IMG/VR virus record: IMGVR_UViG_3300047392_000113 | Span: 119,152 to 170,832 of that record | Strand: one strand, 5' to 3' | DNA from: a virus | Taxonomy: Duplodnaviria > Heunggongvirae > Uroviricota > Caudoviricetes | DNA length: 51,681 nucleotides | Shown here: positions 6,573 to 24,811 of the stretch, piece after piece | Layout: every line of letters starts with the position of its first letter | Numbering within the stretch: the stretch's first letter is position 1 | Notes under the pieces: model-generated | The model's database searches: none | Seen by the model: the letters and a program-made list of their open reading frames with translations, nothing else | Told to the model about the DNA's origin: nothing | Made by a program: the position numbers and the translations under genes

Positions 6573-8381
6573 GTGTCTAGACTGGTTAGTCTTGTACTTG
6601 GTTTTGTACTGAGTCTCTCAGTAGCACACGCACAAGTATCGATACCTGGAACTAATCTTACTGTCACCTCAGTAAATGGTGGAACAGGAACTTTAGTGAC
6701 AGTGCCAATTTCTGGTGCTGCAGGATTGTCCGTAACTGTTGGTACTGGTTCTGCAGCAGTGCCACTGCAAGATATTCGAAACAACCCAGCAGCTGTAAAC
6801 ATTACAACGTATGATGATTCATACAATAATGTTCCACTAGGGTTTGACTTTCCATTCTTTGGTAAGACATTCAACAACTCTTGGGCTATGACCAATGGTT
6901 TGGTTACATTCCAAGATCCTAATCGTTCTGGTTTGGGTGGTGCTTGCTGCGAGGGTGTAGACTTAAGCAAGACAACTGATGCACGTTACAACTATACCAT
7001 CTACGGATTACACACCGATCTGTATTCTTGGAATGGTCAGAACCAATACTACCTTCGTGGCACAAACGAAATGACATATGGTTGGTATAACGTAAGTCAA
7101 TGCTGTAGTAGTCAAGGTGGTAACAGTTTCGAGATTAAGATTAACTCAGCTGGACTAGTTGATACTCGTGTTGCTGGCGCTATGGTAAACTGGAATAGAG
7201 TGACTTCTGGAATGGCAGGTGATCTTTCCAAGGGCGAGTTCTATCAATACTACCATGGTCAGGGATTGAACATAACTGCTGGTAGTTCGAGTATCTTTAG
7301 TTGGCAAGCATTGAGCGGAACTGGTGGCGACTTGTGTGCAGCTAACCCATTGTCTTCACCTACTTGTGCTGGATACCAAGCTGCTTATACTGTCCAACAA
7401 TGTACTATTAGTGCACTATACGACCCATCATGTCCAGGATACGCTGCAGCATTCTTTACTCAGCAATGTTCTATCAGTGCACTATACGACCCATCATGTC
7501 CAGGATACGCCACTGCATATCACGATCAACAATGCTCCATAAATGCGTTATATGCTACAGACTGTTCAGGTTACGAACAAGCATATCTAAACGCACAGTG
7601 TATTAAAGATTCTTTGTATTCTACAAAGTGTGAGGGGTACGCAACTGCTTATGCTATCAAGTATCTTGTTCCACTAGATTCATCAGTAACAACTGCTGTT
7701 AATGCTTCGCTATCAAACACTGCTGCTGTTAAAGCAAATGACCCAACAAATACAGTAGTGGCAACAAACACAGCAAGCACAACAATTAACACTGACGGTA
7801 CAGTATCAACTGGTGTTTCAAAAACTGGTGATACTAACGTTGATAAGGCAATCGCTCCTCCACCACCAACTGCTAACTCTAGTGCAGCACCTGCTGCTGT
7901 TGTTCAATTGGCACCTCCTCCACCACCAGCTGCACAAGCACCACAGGAAAGAAAACCTGAAGGTAAACCAGAAGGTGGTGACAGAGCTGCAGGTGGTCCA
8001 CCACAGATGGCGCAGGGGCAACAAGGTGGAGACTCCAAACCAGCGCAACCAACTGCTCGTCAAGAACTTCAAGCAAAGCGTGAAGCTAATGCAAGAGCAG
8101 AAGCTATTGAGAAGGGTAAGAACCTCGCCAACGAGATGGGTAAGGTTGCTGACATTGAATCTCAGAAACAACTACAGAACGTAGTTATCCAAGCAATGGG
8201 GTTTACTCCAGGATTTGACACATATGGTAAGGCAACAATACCTGACGTTGCTGGATACAAACCATACTCGGTTTATAACAATCAAAAGAATATTGATAAT
8301 CGTACCACACTAAGAATGTTTGGTGGTGCTGATCGACTACACAATGAAATGGTCGATTTACAATACAACAAGGAGAAGTAA
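6573..8381 (+). CDS. Large secreted/virion-type protein: nidogen-like N-region, Cys repeats, Pro-rich linker
   Basis: Signal peptide; LGFDFPFFGKTF..WAMTNG resembles NIDO-like domains; 22-aa Cys repeats; PPPP tracts. Confidence 0.65.
   Translation: MSRLVSLVLGFVLSLSVAHAQVSIPGTNLTVTSVNGGTGTLVTVPISGAAGLSVTVGTGSAAVPLQDIRNNPAAVNITTYDDSYNNVPLGFDFPFFGKTFNNSWAMTNGLVTFQDPNRSGLGGACCEGVDLSKTTDARYNYTIYGLHTDLYSWNGQNQYYLRGTNEMTYGWYNVSQCCSSQGGNSFEIKINSAGLVDTRVAGAMVNWNRVTSGMAGDLSKGEFYQYYHGQGLNITAGSSSIFSWQALSGTGGDLCAANPLSSPTCAGYQAAYTVQQCTISALYDPSCPGYAAAFFTQQCSISALYDPSCPGYATAYHDQQCSINALYATDCSGYEQAYLNAQCIKDSLYSTKCEGYATAYAIKYLVPLDSSVTTAVNASLSNTAAVKANDPTNTVVATNTASTTINTDGTVSTGVSKTGDTNVDKAIAPPPPTANSSAAPAAVVQLAPPPPPAAQAPQERKPEGKPEGGDRAAGGPPQMAQGQQGGDSKPAQPTARQELQAKREANARAEAIEKGKNLANEMGKVADIESQKQLQNVVIQAMGFTPGFDTYGKATIPDVAGYKPYSVYNNQKNIDNRTTLRMFGGADRLHNEMVDLQYNKEK
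7395..7658 (+). repeat. 66-bp (22-aa) intragenic tandem repeat, about 4 units
   Basis: QQCTISALYDPSCPGYAAAFFT / QQCSISALYDPSCPGYATAYHD / QQCSINALYATDCSGYEQAYLN / AQCIKDSLYSTKCEGYATAY; identical 35-nt core at 7410 and 7476. Confidence 0.9.
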
Positions 8382-19294: not shown

Positions 19295-19368
19295 TCCCGA
19301 GTAGTGTAGTGGTAACACACCAGACTTTGACTCTGTTATTGTAGGTTCGATTCCTACCTCGGGTGCCA
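19295..19368 (+). tRNA. tRNA-Gln(UUG)
   Basis: Cloverleaf, loop CT-TTG-AC, GTTCGA, CCA. Confidence 0.92.
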
Positions 19369-19450
19369 AACAAAAGCACATTATGTAACCTGAAGTGCGG
19401 TCACAGGACATCGAAAGGTGTGGTAGCCGTGATAGTGTGCCTTTGTTTGG
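19366..19450 (+). ncRNA. Unknown structured RNA closed by a stem starting at the tRNA CCA
   Basis: CCAAACAAA/TTTGTTTGG and GCACATTA/TAGTGTGC stems; CCTG/CAGG and ACATC-GAAA-GGTGT hairpins; possible pseudoknot. Confidence 0.55.
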
Positions 19451-19474
19451 TAACAATGTTCAAGGAGAACGACA

Positions 19475-19495
19475 ATGAAACGTGCTAAACGTTAG
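19475..19495 (+). CDS. Minigene MKRAKR (TAG stop)
   Basis: AAGGAG RBS, then ATG AAA CGT GCT AAA CGT TAG and a CTCAGA/TCTGAG hairpin. Confidence 0.5.
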   Translation: MKRAKR

Positions 19496-19555
19496 TGTCG
19501 CTCAGATCCCCCGTATGGTCTGAGTTGGCACGTAAAATCAAAACAATACGTACAA

Positions 19556-19631
19556 CCACTCGTGGCGTTAATGGTAGCGTACATGACTCTTAATCATCGA
19601 GGTCTGAGTTCGAATCTCAGCGAGTGGACCA
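19556..19631 (+). tRNA. tRNA-Lys(CUU)
   Basis: Loop CT-CTT-AA, CCA. Confidence 0.92.
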
Positions 19632-19634
19632 TAT

Positions 19635-19709
19635 GGGGGTATAACTTAACGGCTAAAGTAGCTGGCTTTTAACCAGTTAATCAGAGTTCGATTCTCTGTG
19701 CCCCTACCA
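19635..19709 (+). tRNA. tRNA-Lys(UUU)
   Basis: Loop CT-TTT-AA, CCA. Confidence 0.92.
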
Positions 19710-19791
19710 TATGAAAACACATTCTAAAACATAAAGATTTAGGATCATCAAGGGATACTTTCAGCACATCCCCGAGTGTGTTTCTATATGG
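19707..19791 (+). ncRNA. Structured RNA closed by a CCA-anchored stem, containing a mini CAGCA element
   Basis: CCATAT...ACACATTC / GAGTGTGT...ATATGG; internal GGGAT-ACTTT-CAGCA-C-ATCCC. Confidence 0.5.
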
Positions 19792-19796
19792 TTTAT

Positions 19797-19871
19797 GGAG
19801 TTGTTAGTTTAGTGGCAAAACCACGGGTTGTGATTCCGTTATCACGAGTTCGATTCTCGTACGACTCCCCA
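19797..19871 (+). tRNA. tRNA-His(GUG)
   Basis: Loop TT-GTG-AT; encoded G-1 and C73; CCA. Confidence 0.92.
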
Positions 19872-19884
19872 AAGAAAATTGTAT

Positions 19885-19960
19885 GCCGAAGTAGCTCATC
19901 AGGTAGAGCAGCAGACTGAAAATCTGTGTGTGGTTGGTTCGAGTCCAATCTTCGGTACCA
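19885..19960 (+). tRNA. tRNA-Phe(GAA)
   Basis: Loop CT-GAA-AA, CCA. Confidence 0.93.
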
Positions 19961-19967
19961 AAATTAT

Positions 19968-20041
19968 TCCCCGTTAGCTCAATGGTAGAGCACTCGACTG
20001 ATAATCGAGCGACAGTGGATCGTAACCACTACAGGGAACCA
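19968..20041 (+). tRNA. tRNA-Ile(GAU)
   Basis: Loop CT-GAT-AA; variant T-loop ATCGTAA; CCA. Confidence 0.88.
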
Positions 20042-20046
20042 AATGT

Positions 20047-20120
20047 ATCTCGCTGGTGTAATGGCAGCATGTCAGTCTCCAAAACTGTTGGTCGGGGTTC
20101 GAGTCCCTGGCGGGATGCCA
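20047..20120 (+). tRNA. tRNA-Trp(CCA)
   Basis: Loop CT-CCA-AA, CCA end. Confidence 0.92.
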
Positions 20121-20125
20121 AATAT

Positions 20126-20200
20126 GGTGATGTAGCATAATGGTAGTGCACCTCCTTCATACGGAGCAAAGTGGTAGTTCGACTCTACTCATCACCACCA
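20126..20200 (+). tRNA. tRNA-Met/Ile2(CAU)
   Basis: Loop TT-CAT-AC; Met versus lysidine-Ile not resolvable by eye. Confidence 0.85.
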
Positions 20201-20206
20201 AGTTTT

Positions 20207-20268
20207 AGGATTCTTTCAGCAAATTTAAAATTCAAACTTATATCTTGAAAAGAAAGCGAATCCTGTTG
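20207..20268 (+). ncRNA. CAGCAA/GUUG family RNA, copy A
   Basis: AGGATTC..CAGCAA..TTCAA/TTGAA hairpin..GAATCCT-GTTG. Confidence 0.7.
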
Positions 20269-20274
20269 TTTTAT

Positions 20275-20349
20275 GTCGCATTAGACTTCTGGTGAGGTCA
20301 TCACCCTTTCAAGGTGACCAGACGGGATCGTAACCCGTATGCGACTCCA
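20275..20349 (+). tRNA. tRNA-Glu(UUC)
   Basis: Loop CT-TTC-AA; T-loop ATCGTAA; CCA. Confidence 0.88.
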
Positions 20350-20354
20350 ATTAT

Positions 20355-20428
20355 CTCTGTGTAGCGTAGTGGTAGCGTTCGTGTTTTGGGGACATGAGGC
20401 GAAGGTTCGATTCCTTCTACGGAGACCA
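20355..20428 (+). tRNA. tRNA-Pro(UGG)
   Basis: Loop TT-TGG-GG, C1-G72, CCA. Confidence 0.88.
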
Positions 20429-20436
20429 AGTTTTAT

Positions 20437-20511
20437 GGGGGCAGTGCTGGGGCACGGCAGTGGCTTGCAACTTCTGCGACTAGATGGATTCGATTTCCAC
20501 GGCTTCCACCA
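20437..20511 (+). tRNA. Atypical tRNA-Ala(UGC)-like gene
   Basis: G3-U70-type acceptor, loop CT-TGC-AA, poor D and anticodon stems, CCA. Confidence 0.55.
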
Positions 20512-20518
20512 ATTTTAT

Positions 20519-20597
20519 TCCGAGAAACCCAAGCAAGGTGCAGGGGCTTGACTGTTAATCAATGGTTAGATGAGTTCGATTCTCATACTCGGAGCCA
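20519..20597 (+). tRNA. tRNA-Asn(GUU)
   Basis: Loop CT-GTT-AA, CCA. Confidence 0.85.
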
Positions 20598-20604
20598 ATT
20601 TTAT

Positions 20605-20680
20605 ACCGTAGAGTTCACCTGATGGTGATAACCGACTGTCTATCGGAGTGTGGCGGGTTTGATTCCCGTCTACGGTGCCA
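20605..20680 (+). tRNA. tRNA-Asp(GUC)
   Basis: Loop CT-GTC-TA; T-loop TTTGATT; CCA. Confidence 0.82.
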
Positions 20681-20683
20681 AGT

Positions 20684-20851
20684 TTTGTAAGTGTAGATGT
20701 TGAGAAAGCAAAGCCTCGAAAACTTTGTGAGCTAACGGTTCGAGTCCGACAACATGGCAGCTAGTAAGTAACGACTATTACTACGTACCTCTAACCCTAA
20801 CGTATACTGGGCGAAATGGTTGCGAATGAGCGAGGCGCAACTACTTACAAA
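20684..20851 (+). ncRNA. Unknown RNA with an internal tRNA-like T-arm
   Basis: Closing TTTGTAAGT/ACTTACAAA; ATGTTG/CAACAT stem enclosing CGG-TTCGAGT-CCG. Confidence 0.55.
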
Positions 20852-20900
20852 TTCAATCTCTCCCTGACATGCGGAGTACAATGTGATAAGTTGTATGTCA

Positions 20901-21012
20901 TCTTAATGAAGTGTATTGCGTGACGCCACGGTCGTAAGAGCCAGCTGGAACGAGAAGACAAAAAGCCTAAGCATGCAGATGGGCTCGCATGGCGCAGTAT
21001 ATTTCATTAAGA
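20901..21012 (+). ncRNA. Unknown RNA with a 20-bp closing stem
   Basis: TCTTAATGAAGTGTATTGCG pairs with CGCAGTATATTTCATTAAGA using three G-U pairs. Confidence 0.6.
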
Positions 21013-21016
21013 TTTT

Positions 21017-21145
21017 GGAGACATGATGTAATGGTAGCATAGCATAGCAAAAAATCAATTCTGTCTGTAGAATTGTTTCCGCAATACTAAAGCTCTAACT
21101 CTGTAAAAGTTCTTGTACGTGGTTCGAATCCCGTTGTCTCCACCA
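21017..21145 (+). tRNA. Oversized (129-nt) tRNA-like gene with an insertion; Tyr-type loop
   Basis: GGAGACA/TGTCTCC acceptor plus ACCA, D-arm, GGTTCGAATCC T-loop, AACT-CTGTAAA-AGTT; about 50 extra nt after the D-arm. Confidence 0.6.
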
Positions 21146-21150
21146 GTTTT

Positions 21151-21216
21151 AGGAAGGGTTCAGCAAATAAAAAAGCTAAACTTTTTGGTTGTCTAGCGAC
21201 AAAAACCTTCCTGTTG
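21151..21216 (+). ncRNA. CAGCAA/GUUG family RNA, copy B
   Basis: AGGAAGGGTT-CAGCAA..GCTA/TAGC hairpin..AACCTTCCT-GTTG. Confidence 0.7.
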
Positions 21217-21224
21217 TATTTTAT

Positions 21225-21299
21225 GCGCCCTTAGTAAAATGAATATTACACAACGCTACGAACGTTGAAGTGGGAGTTTGATTCTCTCAGGGCGTACCA
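21225..21299 (+). tRNA. tRNA-Arg(ACG)
   Basis: Loop CT-ACG-AA, CCA. Confidence 0.88.
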
Positions 21300-21305
21300 A
21301 GTTAT

Positions 21306-21391
21306 GGATGTGATAGAACAATGGCGTTCTAGTGGGCTGTAACCCCATGGTCTTTCGAGATAGGTAGGTTCGATCCCTACCACATCCACCA
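21306..21391 (+). tRNA. tRNA-Tyr(GUA)
   Basis: Loop CT-GTA-AC, long variable arm, CCA. Confidence 0.88.
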
Positions 21392-21397
21392 AGTTTT

Positions 21398-21507
21398 AGG
21401 TTAGGTTCTGCAAAAATAAAATTAGCTGGTTCGATTCCAGCATTATCCACCAAAACTCGAAAGAGACTCGGATGATGTGCCACGGTGGCAATCAAACTAA
21501 CCTGTTG
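21398..21507 (+). ncRNA. CAGCAA/GUUG family RNA, copy C, with a circularly permuted tRNA-like module (YrlA-like)
   Basis: AGGTTAG/CTAACCT-GTTG; CTGCAA variant; T-arm, then ATTATCC/GGATGAT stem, then TGCCAC/GTGGCA hairpin. Confidence 0.7.
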
Positions 21508-21513
21508 TTTAAT

Positions 21514-21603
21514 GGAAGCGTGTCCGAGCGGTTTAAGGAACTAGTCTAGAAAACTAGCGAGTCAGCAATGGCTCCGTGAGTTCGAATCTCACCGCTTCCA
21601 CCA
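21514..21603 (+). tRNA. tRNA-Ser(AGA)
   Basis: CTAGT-CTAGAAA-ACTAG; long variable arm; A73; CCA. Confidence 0.85.
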
Positions 21604-21608
21604 AATAT

Positions 21609-21700
21609 GGAGAGTAATGCAGCGGGGTTGGTCCTGCGACGTGCCTTGAAAACACGGTTCTCAGAAATGGGATGGGGTTCGACTCCTCTGCTCTCCGCCA
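21609..21700 (+). tRNA. tRNA-Ser(UGA)
   Basis: Loop CT-TGA-AA, long variable arm, G73, CCA. Confidence 0.85.
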
Positions 21701-21704
21701 GAAT

Positions 21705-21830
21705 TTAGAGATAGACGATGTGATGAGTCCCTTGTGCGCTAGTGCCCTATTCTTGAGCATGACACACCAGTAGCAACACAAGGTAGTTTAAACTCTCACA
21801 ATCGAGACAACTCCGACGAGTCCTTGAGAA
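21705..21830 (+). ncRNA. Unknown structured intergenic RNA
   Basis: TTAGAGA/TCTCTAA closing stem; CCTTGTG/CACAAGG internal stem. Confidence 0.4.
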
Positions 21831-21878
21831 AGATAGTTGGAACTCTCTAAACCTTTTTATTATTTTATGGAGAAACTT

Positions 21879-22445
21879 ATGCCAAGCGTATTTTTAACAA
21901 GTGACACACACTTTGGTCACGCTGGTGTGTGTAAGTTCTTGCGTGATGACGGTTCTAAATTGAGACCATGGGACAATCCAGAAGAAATGGACGAAGCCAT
22001 GATCAAGATGTGGAATGAAACTGTAAAGCCAACTGACAAGGTCTACCACTTAGGTGATGTAGTGATCAACCGTAAGGCTTTATCTACTTTACATCGGTTA
22101 AACGGTGATAAAGTTTTGATTAAAGGTAACCACGATATCTTTAGGTTGGAAGACTATACTCCGTTCTTCCGAGATATCCGCAGTTACCATGTGATGAATG
22201 GAGTGTTGTTGAGTCACATTCCTGTTCATCCTCAGCAATTGTATCGTTTTGGTTGTAACATCCATGGACACTTGCACAGCAACCGTGTTATGGTTACTGA
22301 CAAGTATGGTGTTACAAAAGTTGACCCACAGTACTACTCTGTATGCGTTGAGCAAACAGACTTCAGACCCATCTTGTTTGAGGACGTCTTGAAGAAGATT
22401 CAAGAGCAGGGTGGTACTGTGGGATTCAAAAACGGTAATCGTTAA
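21879..22445 (+). CDS. Calcineurin-like metallophosphoesterase
   Basis: SDTHFGH, HLGD, GNHD, LSHIP, HGHLH. Confidence 0.92.
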   Translation: MPSVFLTSDTHFGHAGVCKFLRDDGSKLRPWDNPEEMDEAMIKMWNETVKPTDKVYHLGDVVINRKALSTLHRLNGDKVLIKGNHDIFRLEDYTPFFRDIRSYHVMNGVLLSHIPVHPQQLYRFGCNIHGHLHSNRVMVTDKYGVTKVDPQYYSVCVEQTDFRPILFEDVLKKIQEQGGTVGFKNGNR

Positions 22446-22446
22446 T

Positions 22447-22537
22447 AGTGGGTTGGCAGAGTGGCGATTGCAGCAGTTTGCTAAACTGTAGACTCGAGAA
22501 ATCGGGTCCAAGGGTTCGAGTCCCTTACCCACTGCCA
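22447..22537 (+). tRNA. tRNA-Ser(GCU)
   Basis: Loop TT-GCT-AA, long variable arm, CCA. Confidence 0.92.
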
Positions 22538-22641
22538 GTGTTGTGTCGACGACTAATCTCGGTGCTTCCGTTCTCCCGAGTTAAAATAGTTGATTGTGGT
22601 TCTCCCCTGACGAGATAAAACTTTCAACAAGACGGAGCCAT

Positions 22642-22718
22642 GCGGATGTGATGGAATTGGTATACGTGCTTGACTCAAAATCAAGATTCTGCGAGTTCGA
22701 GTCTCGCCATCCGCACCA
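22642..22718 (+). tRNA. tRNA-Leu(CAA), short variable arm
   Basis: Loop CT-CAA-AA, A73, CCA. Confidence 0.9.
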
Positions 22719-22723
22719 GATTT

Positions 22724-22798
22724 GGGCATTTAGCATAATGGTAGTGCCGTCAACTCATAATTGATACGGTTCGAGTTCGAATCTCGGAGTGCCCACCA
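22724..22798 (+). tRNA. tRNA-Met/Ile2(CAU)
   Basis: Loop CT-CAT-AA, CCA. Confidence 0.88.
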
Positions 22799-22827
22799 TT
22801 GACTTGCAACGCTAATTGATGTATAAT
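22799..22827 (+). promoter_or_regulatory. sigma70 promoter
   Basis: TTGACT-N17-TATAAT. Confidence 0.85.
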
Positions 22828-22836
22828 AAAGGTTAT

Positions 22837-22913
22837 GCGGATGTGATGGAATTGGTATACGTATCGGACTTAAAATCCGAGTTTTGTGGGTTCGAGTCCC
22901 ACCATCCGCACCA
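22837..22913 (+). tRNA. tRNA-Leu(UAA), short variable arm
   Basis: Loop CT-TAA-AA, CCA. Confidence 0.9.
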
Positions 22914-22917
22914 GATT

Positions 22918-22993
22918 TCTCGCTTTCGTATAATGGATAATACAGTAGGCTTCTACCCTACGAATATGGGTTCGATTCCTGTAGGCGAGACCA
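22918..22993 (+). tRNA. tRNA-Arg(UCU)
   Basis: Loop CT-TCT-AC, CCA. Confidence 0.9.
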
Positions 22994-23572
22994 TTATTTT
23001 CTAATTCTTTTAATTGATGAAATTGGTATATGATGATAAGAAACATTTTCTTCAGAGAAAATTTGTGCGTCAGGATGAATTGATTTACAATTTTTATCTG
23101 GAGTACACTCACCGAATCTAATACAGATTTTCTGATTACAAGAGTTAATACACTCTATGAAGTTTCCACTATAATCTAGTATGTTTGCTTCAGTAAAGAT
23201 AGAATGTTCGATCTGCCAATTAACTCTTAGAGCATTGACGGTGTCAACCCTAGATTGTATTAATACTCGCTGGTTGTTTTCGTCAAAATCAAATAGTTGA
23301 TTGTTGTTGGCAAAAATGTCGTACCAATATTGTTTGACTTGTTCAGCAGTTTTAAAAAATTTGTGATGATGTATTTGTCTGCTAGATCCGTTTTCCAAAC
23401 GGTCTTGAGTTTTTGAGATGTTGTGAACACCTTTGTAGAAAAAATTTGTATACTTCAAATCAAATTCTTTCTGGAATTTTTCGAATCCTTCTAGATTATT
23501 TTTGTAATCATCGCTGTCTTCGAAAAATAAATTTTCTGTTTTGTTAACTCTAATAATCTCAAGAATGTACAT
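22994..23572 (-). CDS. AT-rich hypothetical protein with a Cys-rich C-terminus, antisense to the tRNA array
   Basis: 192-aa ORF fills the gap between tRNA-Arg and tRNA-Cys; GAGGA RBS on the minus strand. Confidence 0.7.
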   Translation of the reverse strand: MYILEIIRVNKTENLFFEDSDDYKNNLEGFEKFQKEFDLKYTNFFYKGVHNISKTQDRLENGSSRQIHHHKFFKTAEQVKQYWYDIFANNNQLFDFDENNQRVLIQSRVDTVNALRVNWQIEHSIFTEANILDYSGNFIECINSCNQKICIRFGECTPDKNCKSIHPDAQIFSEENVSYHHIPISSIKRIRK

Positions 23573-23588
23573 TCTTTTTCCTCTTTGT

Positions 23589-23664
23589 GTAGGCGTGTCC
23601 CGAATGGCTAGGGAAGTGATTGCAAACCACTTGTATGCAGGTTCGAGTCCTGTCGCCTACTCCA
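23589..23664 (+). tRNA. tRNA-Cys(GCA)
   Basis: Loop TT-GCA-AA, U73, CCA. Confidence 0.88.
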
Positions 23665-23676
23665 GTAAAACTTTAG

Positions 23677-23740
23677 TAACCTACAAAAGTTGAGGGTTAC
23701 TAAAAAACCTGTTGACATGTATTCATATTTAGTGTATAAT
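23677..23740 (+). promoter_or_regulatory. Stem-loop plus consensus sigma70 promoter
   Basis: AGTAACC/GGTTACT hairpin; TTGACA(23712)-N17-TATAAT(23735). Confidence 0.9.
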
Positions 23741-23775
23741 ATAGTCTCATTAGTTGATTATCTTAGTTCTAAAAT

Positions 23776-23849
23776 CCTCTCTAAGTCATTACGTGAAGTC
23801 GGATGCCTGAGGTGAATTTAGAGGTTGGCAGTCATCCACAAAACTGCCA
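23776..23849 (+). ncRNA. Two-hairpin RNA with a possible loop-loop pairing
   Basis: CCTCT..AGAGG stem with GGATG in the loop; TGGCAGT/ACTGCCA stem with CATCC in the loop. Confidence 0.45.
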
Positions 23850-23853
23850 CTTT

Positions 23854-23928
23854 ACTCGGTTCGTCTATCGGTTAGGACATCAGGTTTTCAACCTGAGAAG
23901 ACGAGTTCGACTCTCGTACCGAGTACCA
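23854..23928 (+). tRNA. tRNA-Glu(UUC)
   Basis: Loop TT-TTC-AA, CCA. Confidence 0.9.
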
Positions 23929-24130
23929 TTAGTAGTATCGTTTTGGAAAAATGCAGTGTTCACCTGCATAATGCACTGTCAATGTAATGGATTCTAGATT
24001 GAAGTTATACACAGTTGCGCCAAAGGAAATCAAGGTAAACAGTGGCCACTGTCCTTGTATAAGGTTTGGGCGATAAAAGCAAACGACAATAGGGTTATTG
24101 TTGTCCATAACGAAACGATACTACTAATGG
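23926..24130 (+). ncRNA. About 205-nt RNA closed by a perfect 18-bp stem starting at the tRNA CCA
   Basis: CCATTAGTAGTATCGTTT (23926) / AAACGATACTACTAATGG (24113-24130). Confidence 0.65.
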
Positions 24131-24137
24131 AAATTTT

Positions 24138-24230
24138 GGAGGCATTGTAGATATGGCGTGTTCTGCAGCGGACTGTAAATCCGTTCCCTCGTGGTAAACA
24201 ATGCTGGTTCGACTCCAGCTGCCTCCACCA
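24138..24230 (+). tRNA. tRNA-Tyr(GUA), enlarged D and variable arms
   Basis: Loop CT-GTA-AA, CCA. Confidence 0.8.
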
Positions 24231-24236
24231 AAATTT

Positions 24237-24311
24237 GGCTCGTTCGTATAATGGTTATTACGTCGGATTGTCTATCCGATCACGGGAGTTCGATCCTCCC
24301 ACGAGTCGCCA
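24237..24311 (+). tRNA. tRNA-Asp(GUC)
   Basis: Loop TT-GTC-TA, G73, CCA. Confidence 0.9.
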
Positions 24312-24323
24312 TAAATAAAAAAC

Positions 24324-24397
24324 GCCTCGGTAGTTTAATGGTAGAACGGCATCCTTACACGGTGCATACGGGAGTTCGATTCTCCAACGAGGTACCA
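24324..24397 (+). tRNA. tRNA-Val(UAC)
   Basis: Loop CT-TAC-AC, CCA. Confidence 0.9.
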
Positions 24398-24402
24398 GTT
24401 AT

Positions 24403-24479
24403 TGCGGGTTAGGGAAATGGTTATCCCGTCAGTCTCATAAGCTGAAGGTAGTTGGTTCGATTCCAGCACTCCGCAACCA
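24403..24479 (+). tRNA. tRNA-Met(CAU), possibly initiator-like
   Basis: Loop CT-CAT-AA; TGCGG acceptor; lacks the triple G-C anticodon stem. Confidence 0.8.
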
Positions 24480-24484
24480 GTTTT

Positions 24485-24551
24485 AGGATATTTGCAGCAA
24501 ACAAAAAAGCATTCAACTTGTAATTGAAAAACGCAAAAAGATATCCTGTTG
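24485..24551 (+). ncRNA. CAGCAA/GUUG family RNA, copy F, with an anticodon-stem-loop mimic
   Basis: AGGATAT..CAGCAA..TTCAA-CTTGTAA-TTGAA..ATATCCT-GTTG. Confidence 0.7.
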
Positions 24552-24557
24552 TATTTC

Positions 24558-24631
24558 GCCCTATTAGTATAATGGCATTACACCTGTTTTGTAATCAGGT
24601 TACGGCAGTTCGATTCTGTCATGGGGCACCA
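24558..24631 (+). tRNA. tRNA-Thr(UGU)
   Basis: Loop TT-TGT-AA, CCA. Confidence 0.9.
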
Positions 24632-24638
24632 AATTTAT

Positions 24639-24715
<77 letters not shown>

Positions 24716-24728
24716 TAAGTAGTATTAT

Positions 24729-24805
24729 GCGGATGTGATGGAATTGGTATACGTGTTGGTCTTAGAAGCCAAATTTTGTGAGTTCGAGTCTCACCATCCG
24801 CACCA
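24729..24805 (+). tRNA. tRNA-Leu(UAG), short variable arm
   Basis: Loop CT-TAG-AA, CCA. Confidence 0.9.
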
Positions 24806-24811
24806 TTTTAT

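What the first reader, a model, noticed from the sequence alone, without database searches (positions are those of the whole stretch)
20207..24551. Short copies of the same CAGCAA/GUUG RNA interleaved among the tRNA genes, with covarying stems and anticodon-loop mimics
Seen: copies at 20207-20268, 21151-21216, 21398-21507 and 24485-24551, plus a mini form near 19752-19773. The stem sequence differs in each but always re-pairs (AGGATTC/GAATCCT, AGGAAGG/CCTTCCT, AGGTTAG/CTAACCT, AGGATAT/ATATCCT), while CAGCAA and the terminal GTTG stay fixed (one CTGCAA). CAGC could pair with GUUG as a pseudoknot. Copy F carries a perfect 5-bp/7-nt anticodon stem-loop (C-U-UGU-AA) and copy A a similar one. They occupy tRNA-sized slots between U-rich spacers. 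Inference: they are processed out like tRNAs and could be decoys for anticodon nucleases displayed on a protein scaffold.
Basis: partly seen in the sequence, partly recalled or inferred. Interest (0 to 1): 0.85.

Follow-up and report, generated by a model that had tools for sequence, protein, structure and literature searches.

The report
Phage Ro60-like protein's handle RNAs
Small RNA genes scattered among this freshwater phage's tRNA genes share one conserved "handle", carry look-alikes of tRNA parts, and travel with a gene for a Ro60-shaped RNA-binding protein, so they look like a little-described phage version of the Ro60/Y-RNA particle.

Summary
Four elements (20207-20268, 21151-21216, 21398-21507, 24485-24551) share a 7-bp terminal stem, a 3-nt spacer, C(A/U)GCAA and a 3' GUUG. 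A search pattern built on the 5' half gave 4 hits against 0.03 expected by chance. The stem covaries in related phages.

The same handle closes two larger RNAs with their own promoters (30695-30977, 31016-31190). These lie just upstream of gene 31237-32673. Pfam calls that gene DUF2828/DUF7788, but its model folds like Ro60.

A seventh, circularly permuted handle sits inside a tRNA-shaped gene (21017-21145).

In ten near-complete related genomes, handles and gene occur together (4 of 4) or are both absent (6 of 6). A model built from this clade finds handles beside the homologous gene in phages of Listeria, Staphylococcus, Mycobacterium, Bacillus, Salmonella and Synechococcus.

The cargo is tRNA parts. 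Anticodon arms occur in 50 of 111 short elements against 0.7 in shuffles. One window copy is a permuted tRNA built on the YrlA plan.

Two details fail: the CAGC:GUUG pseudoknot and the "mini form" at 19752.

My reading is that these are Y-RNA-like partners of a Ro60-like protein. The decoy function is plausible but untested. I rate it a new variant of a known kind. This scan has noted the same family on other DNA.

The parts
20207..20268 (+). Handle RNA A (62 nt). Stem AGGAUUC/GAAUCCU, spacer UUU, CAGCAA, 3' GUUG. The cargo is a hairpin at 20231-20249 with loop CUUAUAU (anticodon-like UAU) closed by an A.C pair.
   Evidence: covariance model R1: 78 bits
21017..21145 (+). tRNA-shaped RNA. It has acceptor GGAGACA/UGUCUCC plus ACCA and a T arm with one bulged base. 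Its interior holds a circularly permuted handle: CAAUUCU-GUCUGU-AGAAUUG (21056-21075), UUU, CCGCAA (21079-21084). It also holds an anticodon-like hairpin, AACU-CUGUAAA-AGUU (21097-21111).
   Evidence: (family D11). It is conserved in 8 relatives with compensatory changes in the handle hairpin, acceptor stem, T stem and anticodon-like stem. ARAGORN and the Rfam tRNA model do not call it in the window.
21151..21216 (+). Handle RNA B (66 nt). Stem AGGAAGG/CCUUCCU, GUU, CAGCAA, GUUG. The cargo is a UUGUC-UAGC-GACAA hairpin and is not tRNA-like.
   Evidence: 67 bits
21398..21507 (+). Handle RNA C (110 nt). Stem AGGUUAG/CUAACCU, GUU, CUGCAA, GUUG. The cargo is a permuted tRNA: T arm, then an acceptor stem with ACCA closed by a small hairpin, then a D arm. 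The handle stands in place of the anticodon arm, which is the YrlA plan.
   Evidence: (MFE -28.6 kcal/mol, z -2.3, with exactly these helices)
24485..24551 (+). Handle RNA D (67 nt). Stem AGGAUAU/AUAUCCU, UUG, CAGCAA, GUUG. The cargo is a perfect anticodon-arm mimic, UUCAA-CUUGUAA-UUGAA (24512-24528, anticodon UGU). tRNA-Thr(UGU) follows directly.
   Evidence: 73.8 bits
30654..30682 (+). Sigma-70-type promoter (TTGACT-17-TATAAT, 11 of 12) about 12 nt upstream of handle RNA E.
30695..30977 (+). Handle RNA E (283 nt). Stem GGGAUGA/UCAUCCC, AUU, CAGCAG, GUUG. It has a large structured cargo of unknown kind.
   Evidence: conserved in relatives L125 and L127
30975..31003 (+). Second sigma-70-type promoter (11 of 12) in front of handle RNA F and the protein gene.
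31016..31190 (+). Handle RNA F (175 nt). Stem AGGAUAG/CUAUCCU, GUU, CAGCAA, GUUG. It ends 46 nt upstream of the Ro60-like gene and carries two conserved hairpins.
   Evidence: 13-sequence consensus fold; 14 of 29 pairs with compensatory changes
31237..32673 (+). Gene for the Ro60-fold protein (478 aa). Pfam gives DUF2828 + DUF7788, and PHROG 850 names it 'RNA-binding protein'. It has a helical ring, a vWA domain and an intact MIDAS motif.
19295..26278 (+). tRNA gene array (32 of the 33 ARAGORN calls, all on +) that hosts handle RNAs A-D and the permuted copy.

Best explanation
The four elements are genes for small non-coding RNAs of one family. The family has three more members in the window (21017-21145, 30695-30977, 31016-31190).

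Each RNA is closed by a common 'handle'. The handle is a terminal helix with fixed outer pairs (A/G)GG...CC(U/C) and four freely covarying inner pairs, then a 3-nt spacer, an unpaired C-N-G-C-A-R box on the 5' side, and a 3' GU(U) tail.

I infer that the handle is the docking site for the phage's Ro60-fold protein (31237-32673), in the way the terminal stem of a Y RNA docks on Ro60.

The array copies would be made as part of the tRNA operon transcript. They would be freed by the enzymes that free the flanking tRNAs: RNase P at the next tRNA's 5' end, and 3' trimming behind the previous CCA. The two gene-proximal copies have their own promoters.

The variable interior is cargo that imitates parts of tRNAs. 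In the window this is an anticodon arm (UGU; a UAU-like one) and a permuted tRNA lacking the anticodon arm. Relatives also carry a tRNA lacking its acceptor stem.

The particle therefore displays tRNA look-alikes on a Ro-like ring. The use I think most likely is to occupy or recruit tRNA-directed enzymes during infection, above all host tRNA-cleaving defence nucleases (decoy or sponge).

Shown here: the family, the covarying stem, the tRNA-part cargo, the Ro60 fold, and the genomic coupling. Inferred: binding, processing and function.

My odds are: real RNA family 0.95; partner of the Ro60-like protein 0.75; decoy function 0.3.
For: Family and stem:
- 4 pattern hits against 0.03 expected.
- The strict descriptor gives 6 on + and 0 on - in the window, and 110 on + against 2 on - in 1.2 Mb of 80 loci anchored on an unrelated array gene.
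- With pairing not imposed, 94 of 100 half-site pairs have all four free positions paired, against 13 on permutation (maximum 26 of 2000). There are 21 different stem 4-mers.
- On 38 short elements, 4 of 7 pairs covary and 60 cells show double changes against 17.6 in shuffles (0 of 500 shuffles reached the observed value). Slid registers fall to 31-48% paired.

Protein:
- The model has pLDDT 90 and pTM 0.90.
- The top 13 PDB matches are all Ro60/TROVE (TM by query 0.48-0.63; best E 6e-9). They include Xenopus Ro with RNA, Deinococcus Rsr and Thermus phage phiLo Ro60. The Swiss-Prot models agree.
- The MIDAS residues D280, S282, S284, T355 and D387 are invariant in 63 homologs.

Coupling of RNA and gene:
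- Two handle RNAs with near-consensus promoters lie directly upstream of the gene.
- In 80 loci anchored on the gene there are 88 strict hits on + against 1 on -. Of these, 49 end within 600 nt upstream, and 34 of 72 loci have such a hit.
- In 10 near-complete relatives the gene is present in 4 of 4 genomes with handle clusters and in 0 of 6 without.
- Model R1, built from this clade, finds 16 of 17 hits on the gene's strand. Twelve lie within 600 nt of the gene, in 8 of 10 distant phages.
- Within a genome all handles share the same outer stem (UGGAC in Lumos, AGACA in the Bacillus phage). This differs between genomes, as expected for one genome-specific binding partner.

Cargo:
- 50 of 111 unique short elements have a perfect 5-bp/7-nt hairpin with loop Y-U-NNN-R-N, against 0.74 in shuffles.
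- The permuted-tRNA and acceptor-less tRNA types are seen.

Precedent:
- Bacterial and phage Ro60 bind Y RNAs encoded beside them, and YrlA carries the same V-T-acceptor-D module (PMC4201824).
- Phage phiLo Ro60 binds two phage Y-like RNAs and host PNPase (PMC12135203).
- In Listeria phage CKA15 the homologous protein was found in virions, and three very highly transcribed non-coding regions lie within 2 kb upstream (PMC12282133).
Against: - No binding, processing or expression data exist for this phage. The RNA-library contigs that cover the region cannot exclude DNA carry-over and show no ends.
- The canonical Ro-binding motif GNCGAA(N)G is absent, and Pfam does not place the protein in TROVE.
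- No Rfam Y RNA or YrlA match in the window.
- Four of the seven copies lie 6.7-11 kb from the gene, not beside it.
- Element B has no tRNA-like cargo, and the cargo of E and F is unexplained.
- For the decoy step: mimic loops are mostly identical to the phage's own tRNA loops (20 of 29). They are therefore not visibly tuned to host tRNAs, and no host or host nuclease is known.
Confidence: 0.65

Rival explanations
1. Same particle, different job. The handle RNAs tether the Ro60-like ring to an RNA-processing or repair enzyme, such as host PNPase as in the Deinococcus and phiLo RYPER complexes, or a ligase/kinase. The tRNA-like cargo would guide the machine to damaged or misfolded tRNAs for repair or degradation rather than acting as a decoy.
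For: - Known Ro60/Y RNA particles work this way (PMC4201824, PMC12135203).
- The Salmonella rsr-yrlBA-rtcBA operon answers to damaged tRNAs (PMC7790460).
- The homologous gene lies next to an RNA ligase in Cronobacter phage GAP32.
- Mycobacteriophage LeBron has the Ro-like gene together with a polynucleotide kinase and an RNA ligase (PMC13148394).
- A metallophosphoesterase gene lies inside this array (21879-22445) and near the gene in Lumos and MrDarsey.
Against: - This complete 170.8-kb genome has no detectable RtcB or Rnl2-type ligase.
- Isolated anticodon arms are poor guides to damaged tRNAs because they offer no complementarity.
- Nothing here links the protein to PNPase.
Confidence: 0.25
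2. Protein-independent cis elements of the tRNA operon. They would be spacers that guide or pace RNase P/RNase E processing, stabilise the precursor, or terminate transcription. Their link to the Ro60-like gene would be incidental.
For: They lie flush between tRNAs, behind (A)GUUUU and in front of U-rich spacers. About 45% of family members in relatives lie within 12 nt of a flanking tRNA.
Against: - Two copies lie outside the array with their own promoters, directly upstream of the protein gene.
- Related phages with similar arrays but no Ro60-like gene have no handles.
- In distant phages the handles cluster at the gene even where no tRNA is adjacent, for example Mycobacterium phage Lumos and the Staphylococcus phage.
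- The conserved box and the anticodon-arm cargo have no role in this model.
- The scan for terminator-like sites found none at the elements.
Confidence: 0.07
3. Decayed tRNA genes or small selfish repeats that spread within tRNA arrays and have no function of their own.
For: - Cargo is tRNA-derived.
- Element C is rearranged as a unit relative to its neighbours in a related phage. RNA-library contigs join 21700 to 21394 and break at 21511.
- Copy number varies between relatives.
Against: - The box and tail are strictly conserved, and the stem changes are compensatory, across phages of several bacterial phyla. That is purifying selection on an RNA structure, not decay.
- The elements are strictly strand-specific (110 against 2; 88 against 1).
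- They co-occur with one protein gene.
Confidence: 0.03

Closest known systems
Bacterial and phage Ro60 (Rsr) with Y RNAs, especially YrlA (Rfam RF02553; Chen et al. 2014, PMC4201824) and Thermus phage phiLo Ro60 with Yrl1/Yrl2 (PMC12135203)
   Same: - A ring-plus-vWA protein of the Ro60 fold, encoded beside small RNAs on the same strand.
- RNAs closed by a stem made from their 5' and 3' ends, with several different RNAs per genome.
- One RNA (21398-21507) has the YrlA order of modules: A-rich region, T arm, closed acceptor stem, D arm.
- YrlA-type relatives of this element score 34-39 bits against RF02553.
   Different: - The protein is not in Pfam TROVE. It is DUF2828/DUF7788, with 13-16% identity to Ro60 in the structural alignments.
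- The docking motif is CNGCAR next to a covarying stem with a GU tail, not GNCGAA(N)G.
- No window RNA reaches any Y RNA model.
- Most members are about 60 nt and carry only an anticodon arm, a cargo not described for Y RNAs.
- Many copies are embedded in a tRNA array and one is built into a tRNA frame.
Class I RNAs of dictyostelid social amoebae (Rfam RF01414; Kjellin et al. 2021, PMC7919456)
   Same: - About 60 nt and AU-rich.
- A 6-bp covarying stem joins the ends.
- A conserved unpaired motif containing CAGCAA lies directly 3' of the 5' stem strand.
- The interior is variable and the 3' end is ...CUGU.
- Window copies score 27.2 and 20.4 bits, and a relative scores 29.4 bits.
   Different: - All scores are below the gathering score of 41.5.
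- Class I RNAs are eukaryotic, have their own DUSE promoter, are reported as unique to Dictyostelia, and are known to bind an RRM protein.
- No link to a DUF2828 protein is known, and I could not test for one because organism names are masked in the structure library.
- The likeness could be convergence on a short motif.
Stable small RNAs in the phage T4 tRNA cluster (species 1 and 2, rnaC/rnaD). From my own knowledge, not checked here.
   Same: Non-tRNA small RNAs encoded among phage tRNA genes and released by tRNA-processing enzymes.
   Different: No shared handle or protein partner is known for them. I made no sequence comparison.
Listeria phage CKA15 'possible Y RNAs' (PMC12282133)
   Same: The same protein family: CKA15_055 matches Rsr by HHpred, and its close relative in phage AG20 is 32% identical to the window protein. 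That paper reports abundant non-coding transcripts just upstream, near tRNA genes, and guesses they are Y RNAs.
   Different: - That paper defines no RNA family, motif or structure.
- The one region it gives coordinates for (26,236-26,727) is not the handle cluster. I place the cluster at about 25,286-25,552 of OR088597.1.

Membership tests
Y RNA / YrlA (RF02553) | Encoded near a Ro60 ortholog (within about 4 kb), on the same strand | tested here: met
   E and F end 260 and 46 nt upstream of the gene. The array copies lie 6.7-11 kb upstream on the same strand. Across 72 relatives' loci, 34 have a strict hit within 600 nt upstream.
Y RNA / YrlA (RF02553) | Stem formed by the RNA's 5' and 3' ends | tested here: met
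   7-bp terminal stem, of which 4 pairs covary.
Y RNA / YrlA (RF02553) | Ro/Rsr-binding motif GNCGAA(N0-1)G near the 5' end (GGUCCGA in vertebrates) | tested here: not met
   The conserved box is C(A/U/C)GCA(A/G). No copy has GNCGAA (motif definition from PMC4201824).
Y RNA / YrlA (RF02553) | tRNA-like domain in the order V, T arm, closed acceptor stem, D arm | tested here: met
   Met for 21398-21507 only: the fold gives exactly these helices. Not met for 20207, 21151 or 24485.
Y RNA / YrlA (RF02553) | Rfam gathering score (69 bits) | tested here: not met
   No hit in the window at E up to 10. Homologous elements in L126 and in Mycobacterium phage Lumos score 33.9 and 39.3 bits.
Y RNA / YrlA (RF02553) | Physical binding to the Ro60 protein | not testable with these tools
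   Needs co-immunoprecipitation or a gel-shift assay.
Ro60 / TROVE protein (the partner, 31237-32673) | Helical ring plus C-terminal vWA domain with a MIDAS motif | tested here: met
   Model with pLDDT 90. Full-length matches to Ro60 structures, TM 0.60-0.63 for the best, best E 6e-9. DxSxS...T...D is invariant.
Ro60 / TROVE protein (the partner, 31237-32673) | Match to the Pfam TROVE model, or sequence similarity to Ro60 | tested here: not met
   Pfam gives DUF2828 + DUF7788 only. phmmer against PDB sequences finds no Ro60.
Dictyostelid Class I RNA (RF01414) | Short terminal stem plus an adjacent conserved motif, at or above the gathering score of 41.5 bits | tested here: not met
   27.2 bits (20208-20265) and 20.4 bits (24486-24548). 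The architecture is alike but the scores are below threshold.
Dictyostelid Class I RNA (RF01414) | Dictyostelid gene with a DUSE promoter about 60 nt upstream | tested here: not met
   This is a phage tRNA operon. The promoters here are sigma-70-type.
tRNA | Cloverleaf recognised by ARAGORN or Rfam RF00005 | tested here: not met
   None of the four elements, nor 21017-21145, is called.

The most novel reading that the evidence does not exclude
The handle is the address label of a widespread modular system that has not been properly described. In this reading a Ro60-like (DUF2828) ring carries interchangeable RNA cargos that imitate tRNA parts, and phages use it to neutralise tRNA-targeting immunity. 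The same label in dictyostelid Class I RNAs would then mean that those orphan RNAs are Y-RNA-like partners of a eukaryotic DUF2828 protein.
Probability: 0.12. Interest if true: 0.9.

Novelty: new variant of a known kind. Interest (0 to 1): 0.72.

Why it matters
Ro60/Y RNA particles are known from animals, some bacteria and a few phages, but what their tRNA-like modules are for is still open. This window shows a second, far more phage-rich branch. The protein is Ro60-shaped but unrecognisable by sequence. It is paired with a family of RNAs whose common handle is easy to search for and whose cargo is plainly tRNA parts: anticodon arms, a tRNA without its anticodon arm, and in relatives a tRNA without its acceptor stem.

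That modularity makes the question testable. The handle can be mutated and restored, cargos can be swapped, and cultured relatives exist (Felix O1-type, A511/P100-type, cluster L mycobacteriophages).

If the cargo acts on tRNA-cleaving defence nucleases, this would be an RNA-based anti-defence strategy that complements phage tRNA arrays. More than 700 phage records in GenBank carry the protein. Most annotate it only as 'hypothetical' or 'RNA-binding protein', and the RNAs are not annotated at all.

Tried and rejected
- **Rfam.** At gathering thresholds it finds only tRNAs in the window. At permissive thresholds it adds only weak Class I RNA hits.
- **Covariance model R1.** It does not bridge long cargos. 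It scores element C at only 18.7 bits and misses E and F. I used an explicit descriptor for the long elements instead.
- **Pseudoknot CAGC:GUUG.** Rejected. In 263 unique elements the last tail base is G/A/U in 146/74/38 cases while the box C never changes. Box position 2 varies A/C/U against a fixed tail U.
- **Mini form at 19752-19773.** Rejected as a family member.
- **Does the mimic's anticodon match the neighbouring tRNA?** Only 5 of 29 cases, all Thr-UGU, so there is no rule.
- **Do mimic loops differ from the phage's own tRNA loops, as decoys tuned to host tRNAs might?** 20 of 29 are identical, so this is uninformative.
- **Expression.** Fourteen RNA-labelled freshwater runs hold 5-11% of the region's words. 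I laid the contigs of four runs. An exact 171-nt contig spans element C (21349-21519), and others span D and 21017-21145. Coding parts are covered at similar low depth, contigs show no ends, and DNA carry-over cannot be excluded, so this is not evidence of discrete RNAs.
- **Near-identity DNA search of GenBank phages.** It found only single tRNA matches. A large window protein (6573-8381) has no phage match, so the phage has no close cultured relative.
- **Literature.** A search for DUF2828 gave only plant and tardigrade mentions. A search for anticodon-nuclease decoys gave nothing on such RNAs.
- **Does Dictyostelium have a DUF2828 protein?** The AlphaFold cluster search masks organism names, so I could not tell.
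- **RNA ligase genes in the phage's own genome.** RtcB and PF09414 are absent. The PF09511 search is uninformative because its control did not ring.

Full report
**Setting**

The window is the last 51.7 kb of a complete 170.8-kb phage record with terminal repeats. Words from it occur in freshwater metagenome runs. It has no close cultured relative. ARAGORN tRNA genes, all on the + strand, and 32 of them lie between 19295 and 26278. Rfam at curated thresholds sees only tRNAs.

**The observation**

A pattern built on their 5' halves occurs four times against 0.03 expected. Each starts 5-6 nt after the CCA of a tRNA, behind (A)GUUUU, and stops 6-8 nt before the next tRNA.

A strict descriptor (perfect 7-bp stem, 3-nt spacer, C[AU]GCA[AG], 3' GUUG) finds six copies on the + strand and none on the - strand. 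These are the four array copies plus two larger RNAs at 30695-30977 and 31016-31190.

A seventh copy is hidden in a tRNA-shaped gene at 21017-21145 that ARAGORN does not call. There the handle is circularly permuted: its 3' strand, a GUCUGU loop, its 5' strand, UUU and CCGCAA sit in the interior of an RNA with a normal acceptor stem, ACCA end and T arm. Eight relatives keep this gene, with compensatory changes in all four helices.

The 'mini form' at 19752 lacks every handle feature. It is conserved only in one near-identical relative.

**Is the stem real?**

I fetched 80 loci from related phages using the metallophosphoesterase gene inside the array as anchor, so the choice did not depend on the RNA. 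The strict descriptor gives 110 hits on the gene strand and 2 on the other, in 1.2 Mb.

To avoid circularity I then searched for the two half-sites without asking them to pair. In 94 of 100 candidates all four unconstrained positions pair, against 13 when partners are permuted (maximum 26 in 2000 trials). There are 21 different stem 4-mers.

On an alignment of 38 short elements, four of seven pairs covary and three never vary. Double-change cells number 60 against 17.6 in shuffles, and any slide of the register drops pairing to 31-48%.

The proposed CAGC:GUUG pseudoknot fails the same kind of test. Among 263 unique elements the last tail base is G, A or U while the box C is fixed, and box position 2 varies against a fixed U.

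**The protein**

The gene at 31237-32673 has a good ribosome-binding site and follows element F by 46 nt. Pfam gives DUF2828 and DUF7788, and PHROGs gives 'RNA-binding protein'. Sequence search of the PDB finds nothing.

An AlphaFold model built on 63 diverse homologs is confident (pLDDT 90, pTM 0.90). Its top 13 PDB matches are all Ro60, over the full length. They include Xenopus Ro with RNA (TM 0.60-0.63, best E 6e-9), Deinococcus Rsr, human Ro60 and the Ro60 of Thermus phage phiLo. Swiss-Prot models agree. The MIDAS residues of the vWA domain are invariant.

It is therefore a Ro60-fold protein that sequence models do not recognise as TROVE.

**Coupling of RNA and protein**

- E and F each have a near-consensus sigma-70-type promoter, and no convincing terminator separates F from the gene.
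- In 80 loci anchored on the protein gene the strict descriptor gives 88 hits on the gene strand against 1 on the other. Forty-nine end within 600 nt upstream, 30 of them within 100 nt. More diverged relatives keep the handle with tails GUUA, GUUU or GUAA and sometimes the box CCGCAA.
- In ten near-complete related genomes that all share the array phosphoesterase, the four with handle clusters have the gene (E below 1e-239). The six without handles lack it, and there the 5'-half pattern is at background.
- A covariance model built only from this clade was run on ten 7.4-kb loci around the homologous gene in unrelated phages. It gave 17 hits, 16 on the gene's strand and 12 within 600 nt of the gene, in 8 of 10 phages: Synechococcus, Listeria, Staphylococcus, Mycobacterium, Salmonella, Campylobacter, Bacillus and Enterococcus.
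- Within each genome the outer stem pairs are the same in all copies, but they differ between genomes. That is what one genome-specific binding partner would produce.

**Cargo**

Window copy D carries a textbook anticodon arm with loop CUUGUAA. Copy A carries a near one with loop CUUAUAU. Copy C is a tRNA permuted at the anticodon: T arm, acceptor stem with ACCA closed by a hairpin, then D arm, which is the YrlA layout. Copy B carries a plain hairpin.

Relatives show the pattern clearly. Short elements carry 5-bp/7-nt arms with anticodons UGU, GGA, UUU, UCU, GUU, GUA, UGA, GCA, CUU and GAU. Elements of about 101 nt are tRNAs whose acceptor stem is replaced by the handle. Elements of about 100-115 nt are YrlA-like.

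Fifty of 111 unique short elements have a perfect arm with a Y-U-NNN-R-N loop, against 0.74 in shuffled cargos (maximum 5 in 300). Of 152 long elements, 55 contain a T-loop motif, and none of the short ones does. Mycobacterium phage Lumos has all three cargo types in a row just after its Ro-like gene.

The cargo of E and F is unexplained. F has two conserved hairpins supported by covariation.

**How it most likely works**

Shown: a conserved, strand-specific RNA family with a covarying closing helix; cargo made of tRNA parts; a Ro60-fold protein; and tight genomic coupling between the two.

Inferred from the Ro60/Y RNA precedent (PMC4201824; PMC12135203): the handle docks on the ring, and the cargo is presented to something that recognises tRNAs. 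Release from the operon by RNase P and 3' trimming is inferred from position alone.

For the downstream function I favour decoys or sponges for tRNA-directed host enzymes (about 0.3). Bare anticodon arms are what anticodon nucleases recognise, and phage tRNA arrays are themselves linked to such defences.

A RYPER-like adaptor role in tRNA repair or turnover is nearly as likely (about 0.25). In its favour, RNA ligase or kinase genes accompany the gene in other phages. Against it, this genome has no RtcB or Rnl2-type ligase.

The tests I could run do not separate the two. Mimic loops mostly equal the phage's own tRNA loops, and mimic identity does not follow the neighbouring tRNA.

**Comparison with what is known**

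The system works like Ro60/Y RNA, and one window RNA has the YrlA body plan. It nevertheless fails defining features of YrlA membership. It has no GNCGAA(N)G motif and no Rfam match in the window, relatives score 34-39 bits against a threshold of 69, and the protein is outside Pfam TROVE.

The handle closely resembles dictyostelid Class I RNAs in four respects: about 60 nt, a 6-bp covarying terminal stem, an adjacent CAGCAA-containing motif, and a ...CUGU end. All scores are below that family's threshold, and I could not test whether amoebae have the protein.

A 2025 study of Listeria phage CKA15 found the homologous protein in virions and three very highly transcribed non-coding regions within 2 kb upstream. 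It guessed they might be Y RNAs. It defined no motif, and its one stated region is not the handle cluster, which I place at about 25,286-25,552 of that genome. Mycobacteriophage annotators already call the protein 'Ro-like'.

I found no paper that describes the RNA family.

Earlier notes of this scan report the same family on other genomes. I saw the Class I hit and the Ro-like lead before reading those notes, and I tested the main claims independently here.

**Verdict**

The best reading is a Ro60-like particle with modular, tRNA-mimicking handle RNAs: a new variant of a known kind, with function still open.

Noticed in passing
window 20517-20600 and 20608-20680: Two tRNA-shaped genes with CCA ends, T arms and anticodon loops CUGUUAA (Asn) and CUGUCUA (Asp), but with odd D regions. 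Neither ARAGORN nor the Rfam tRNA model calls them. The array also has a normal tRNA-Asn and tRNA-Asp.
   Followed up: no
window 20688-21016: About 330 nt without an ORF between tRNA-like genes. It holds a T-arm-like ACGGTTCGAGTCCGA and a 21-nt inverted repeat (20900-20920 / 20993-21013). RNA-library contigs show their highest local depth here in one run (76 at 20628-20831). Possibly another structured RNA.
   Followed up: no
window 23926-24130: A perfect 18-nt inverted repeat (CCATTAGTAGTATCGTTT / AAACGATACTACTAATGG) encloses 169 nt. It overlaps the CCA end of tRNA-Glu (23854-23928) and ends 8 nt before a weak tRNA-Tyr-like gene (24138-24230, 31 bits).
   Followed up: no
window 26204-26278: A tRNA with anticodon CUA (ARAGORN labels it 'Pyl'; Rfam tRNA 43.6 bits). 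This is an amber-suppressor-type tRNA, and TAG reading in this phage might be worth a look.
   Followed up: no
window 21609-21700: A tRNA-like gene with a long extra arm and a GCCA end. It scores only 30.5 bits against tRNA-Sec and ARAGORN does not call it.
   Followed up: no
window 21879-22445; L282 1-14; L285 4999-6240: A calcineurin-type metallophosphoesterase gene sits inside the tRNA array here. Similar genes lie near the Ro60-like gene in Mycobacterium phage Lumos and Bacillus phage MrDarsey. It could be an RNA end-healing enzyme.
   Followed up: partly
window 22994-23572 (- strand): A 192-aa ORF on the opposite strand in the middle of the tRNA array. It has no Pfam match and is the only stretch of the array region without RNA-library contig cover in three of four runs.
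   Followed up: no
window 31016-31190 and relatives (alignment A3): The gene-proximal handle RNA keeps two conserved hairpins. One is built around GCUUUGAAGG. The other is GUGAG-UUUCGAUUU-CUCAC, followed by AAACAAAAAG. I could not identify what they imitate.
   Followed up: partly
L286 1489-1980 (Listeria phage AG20; = CKA15 26,236-26,727): This is the region reported as the most highly transcribed of phage CKA15. It is a roughly 490-nt ORF-poor stretch with its own strong promoter, between tRNA-Pro and the handle cluster. I saw no handle in it.
   Followed up: partly
window 21394-21511: In RNA-library contigs from two studies a related phage has element C placed after the block 21512-21700 instead of before it, with junctions exactly at 21394 and 21511. 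The element therefore moves as a cassette that includes 4 nt of flank on each side.
   Followed up: partly
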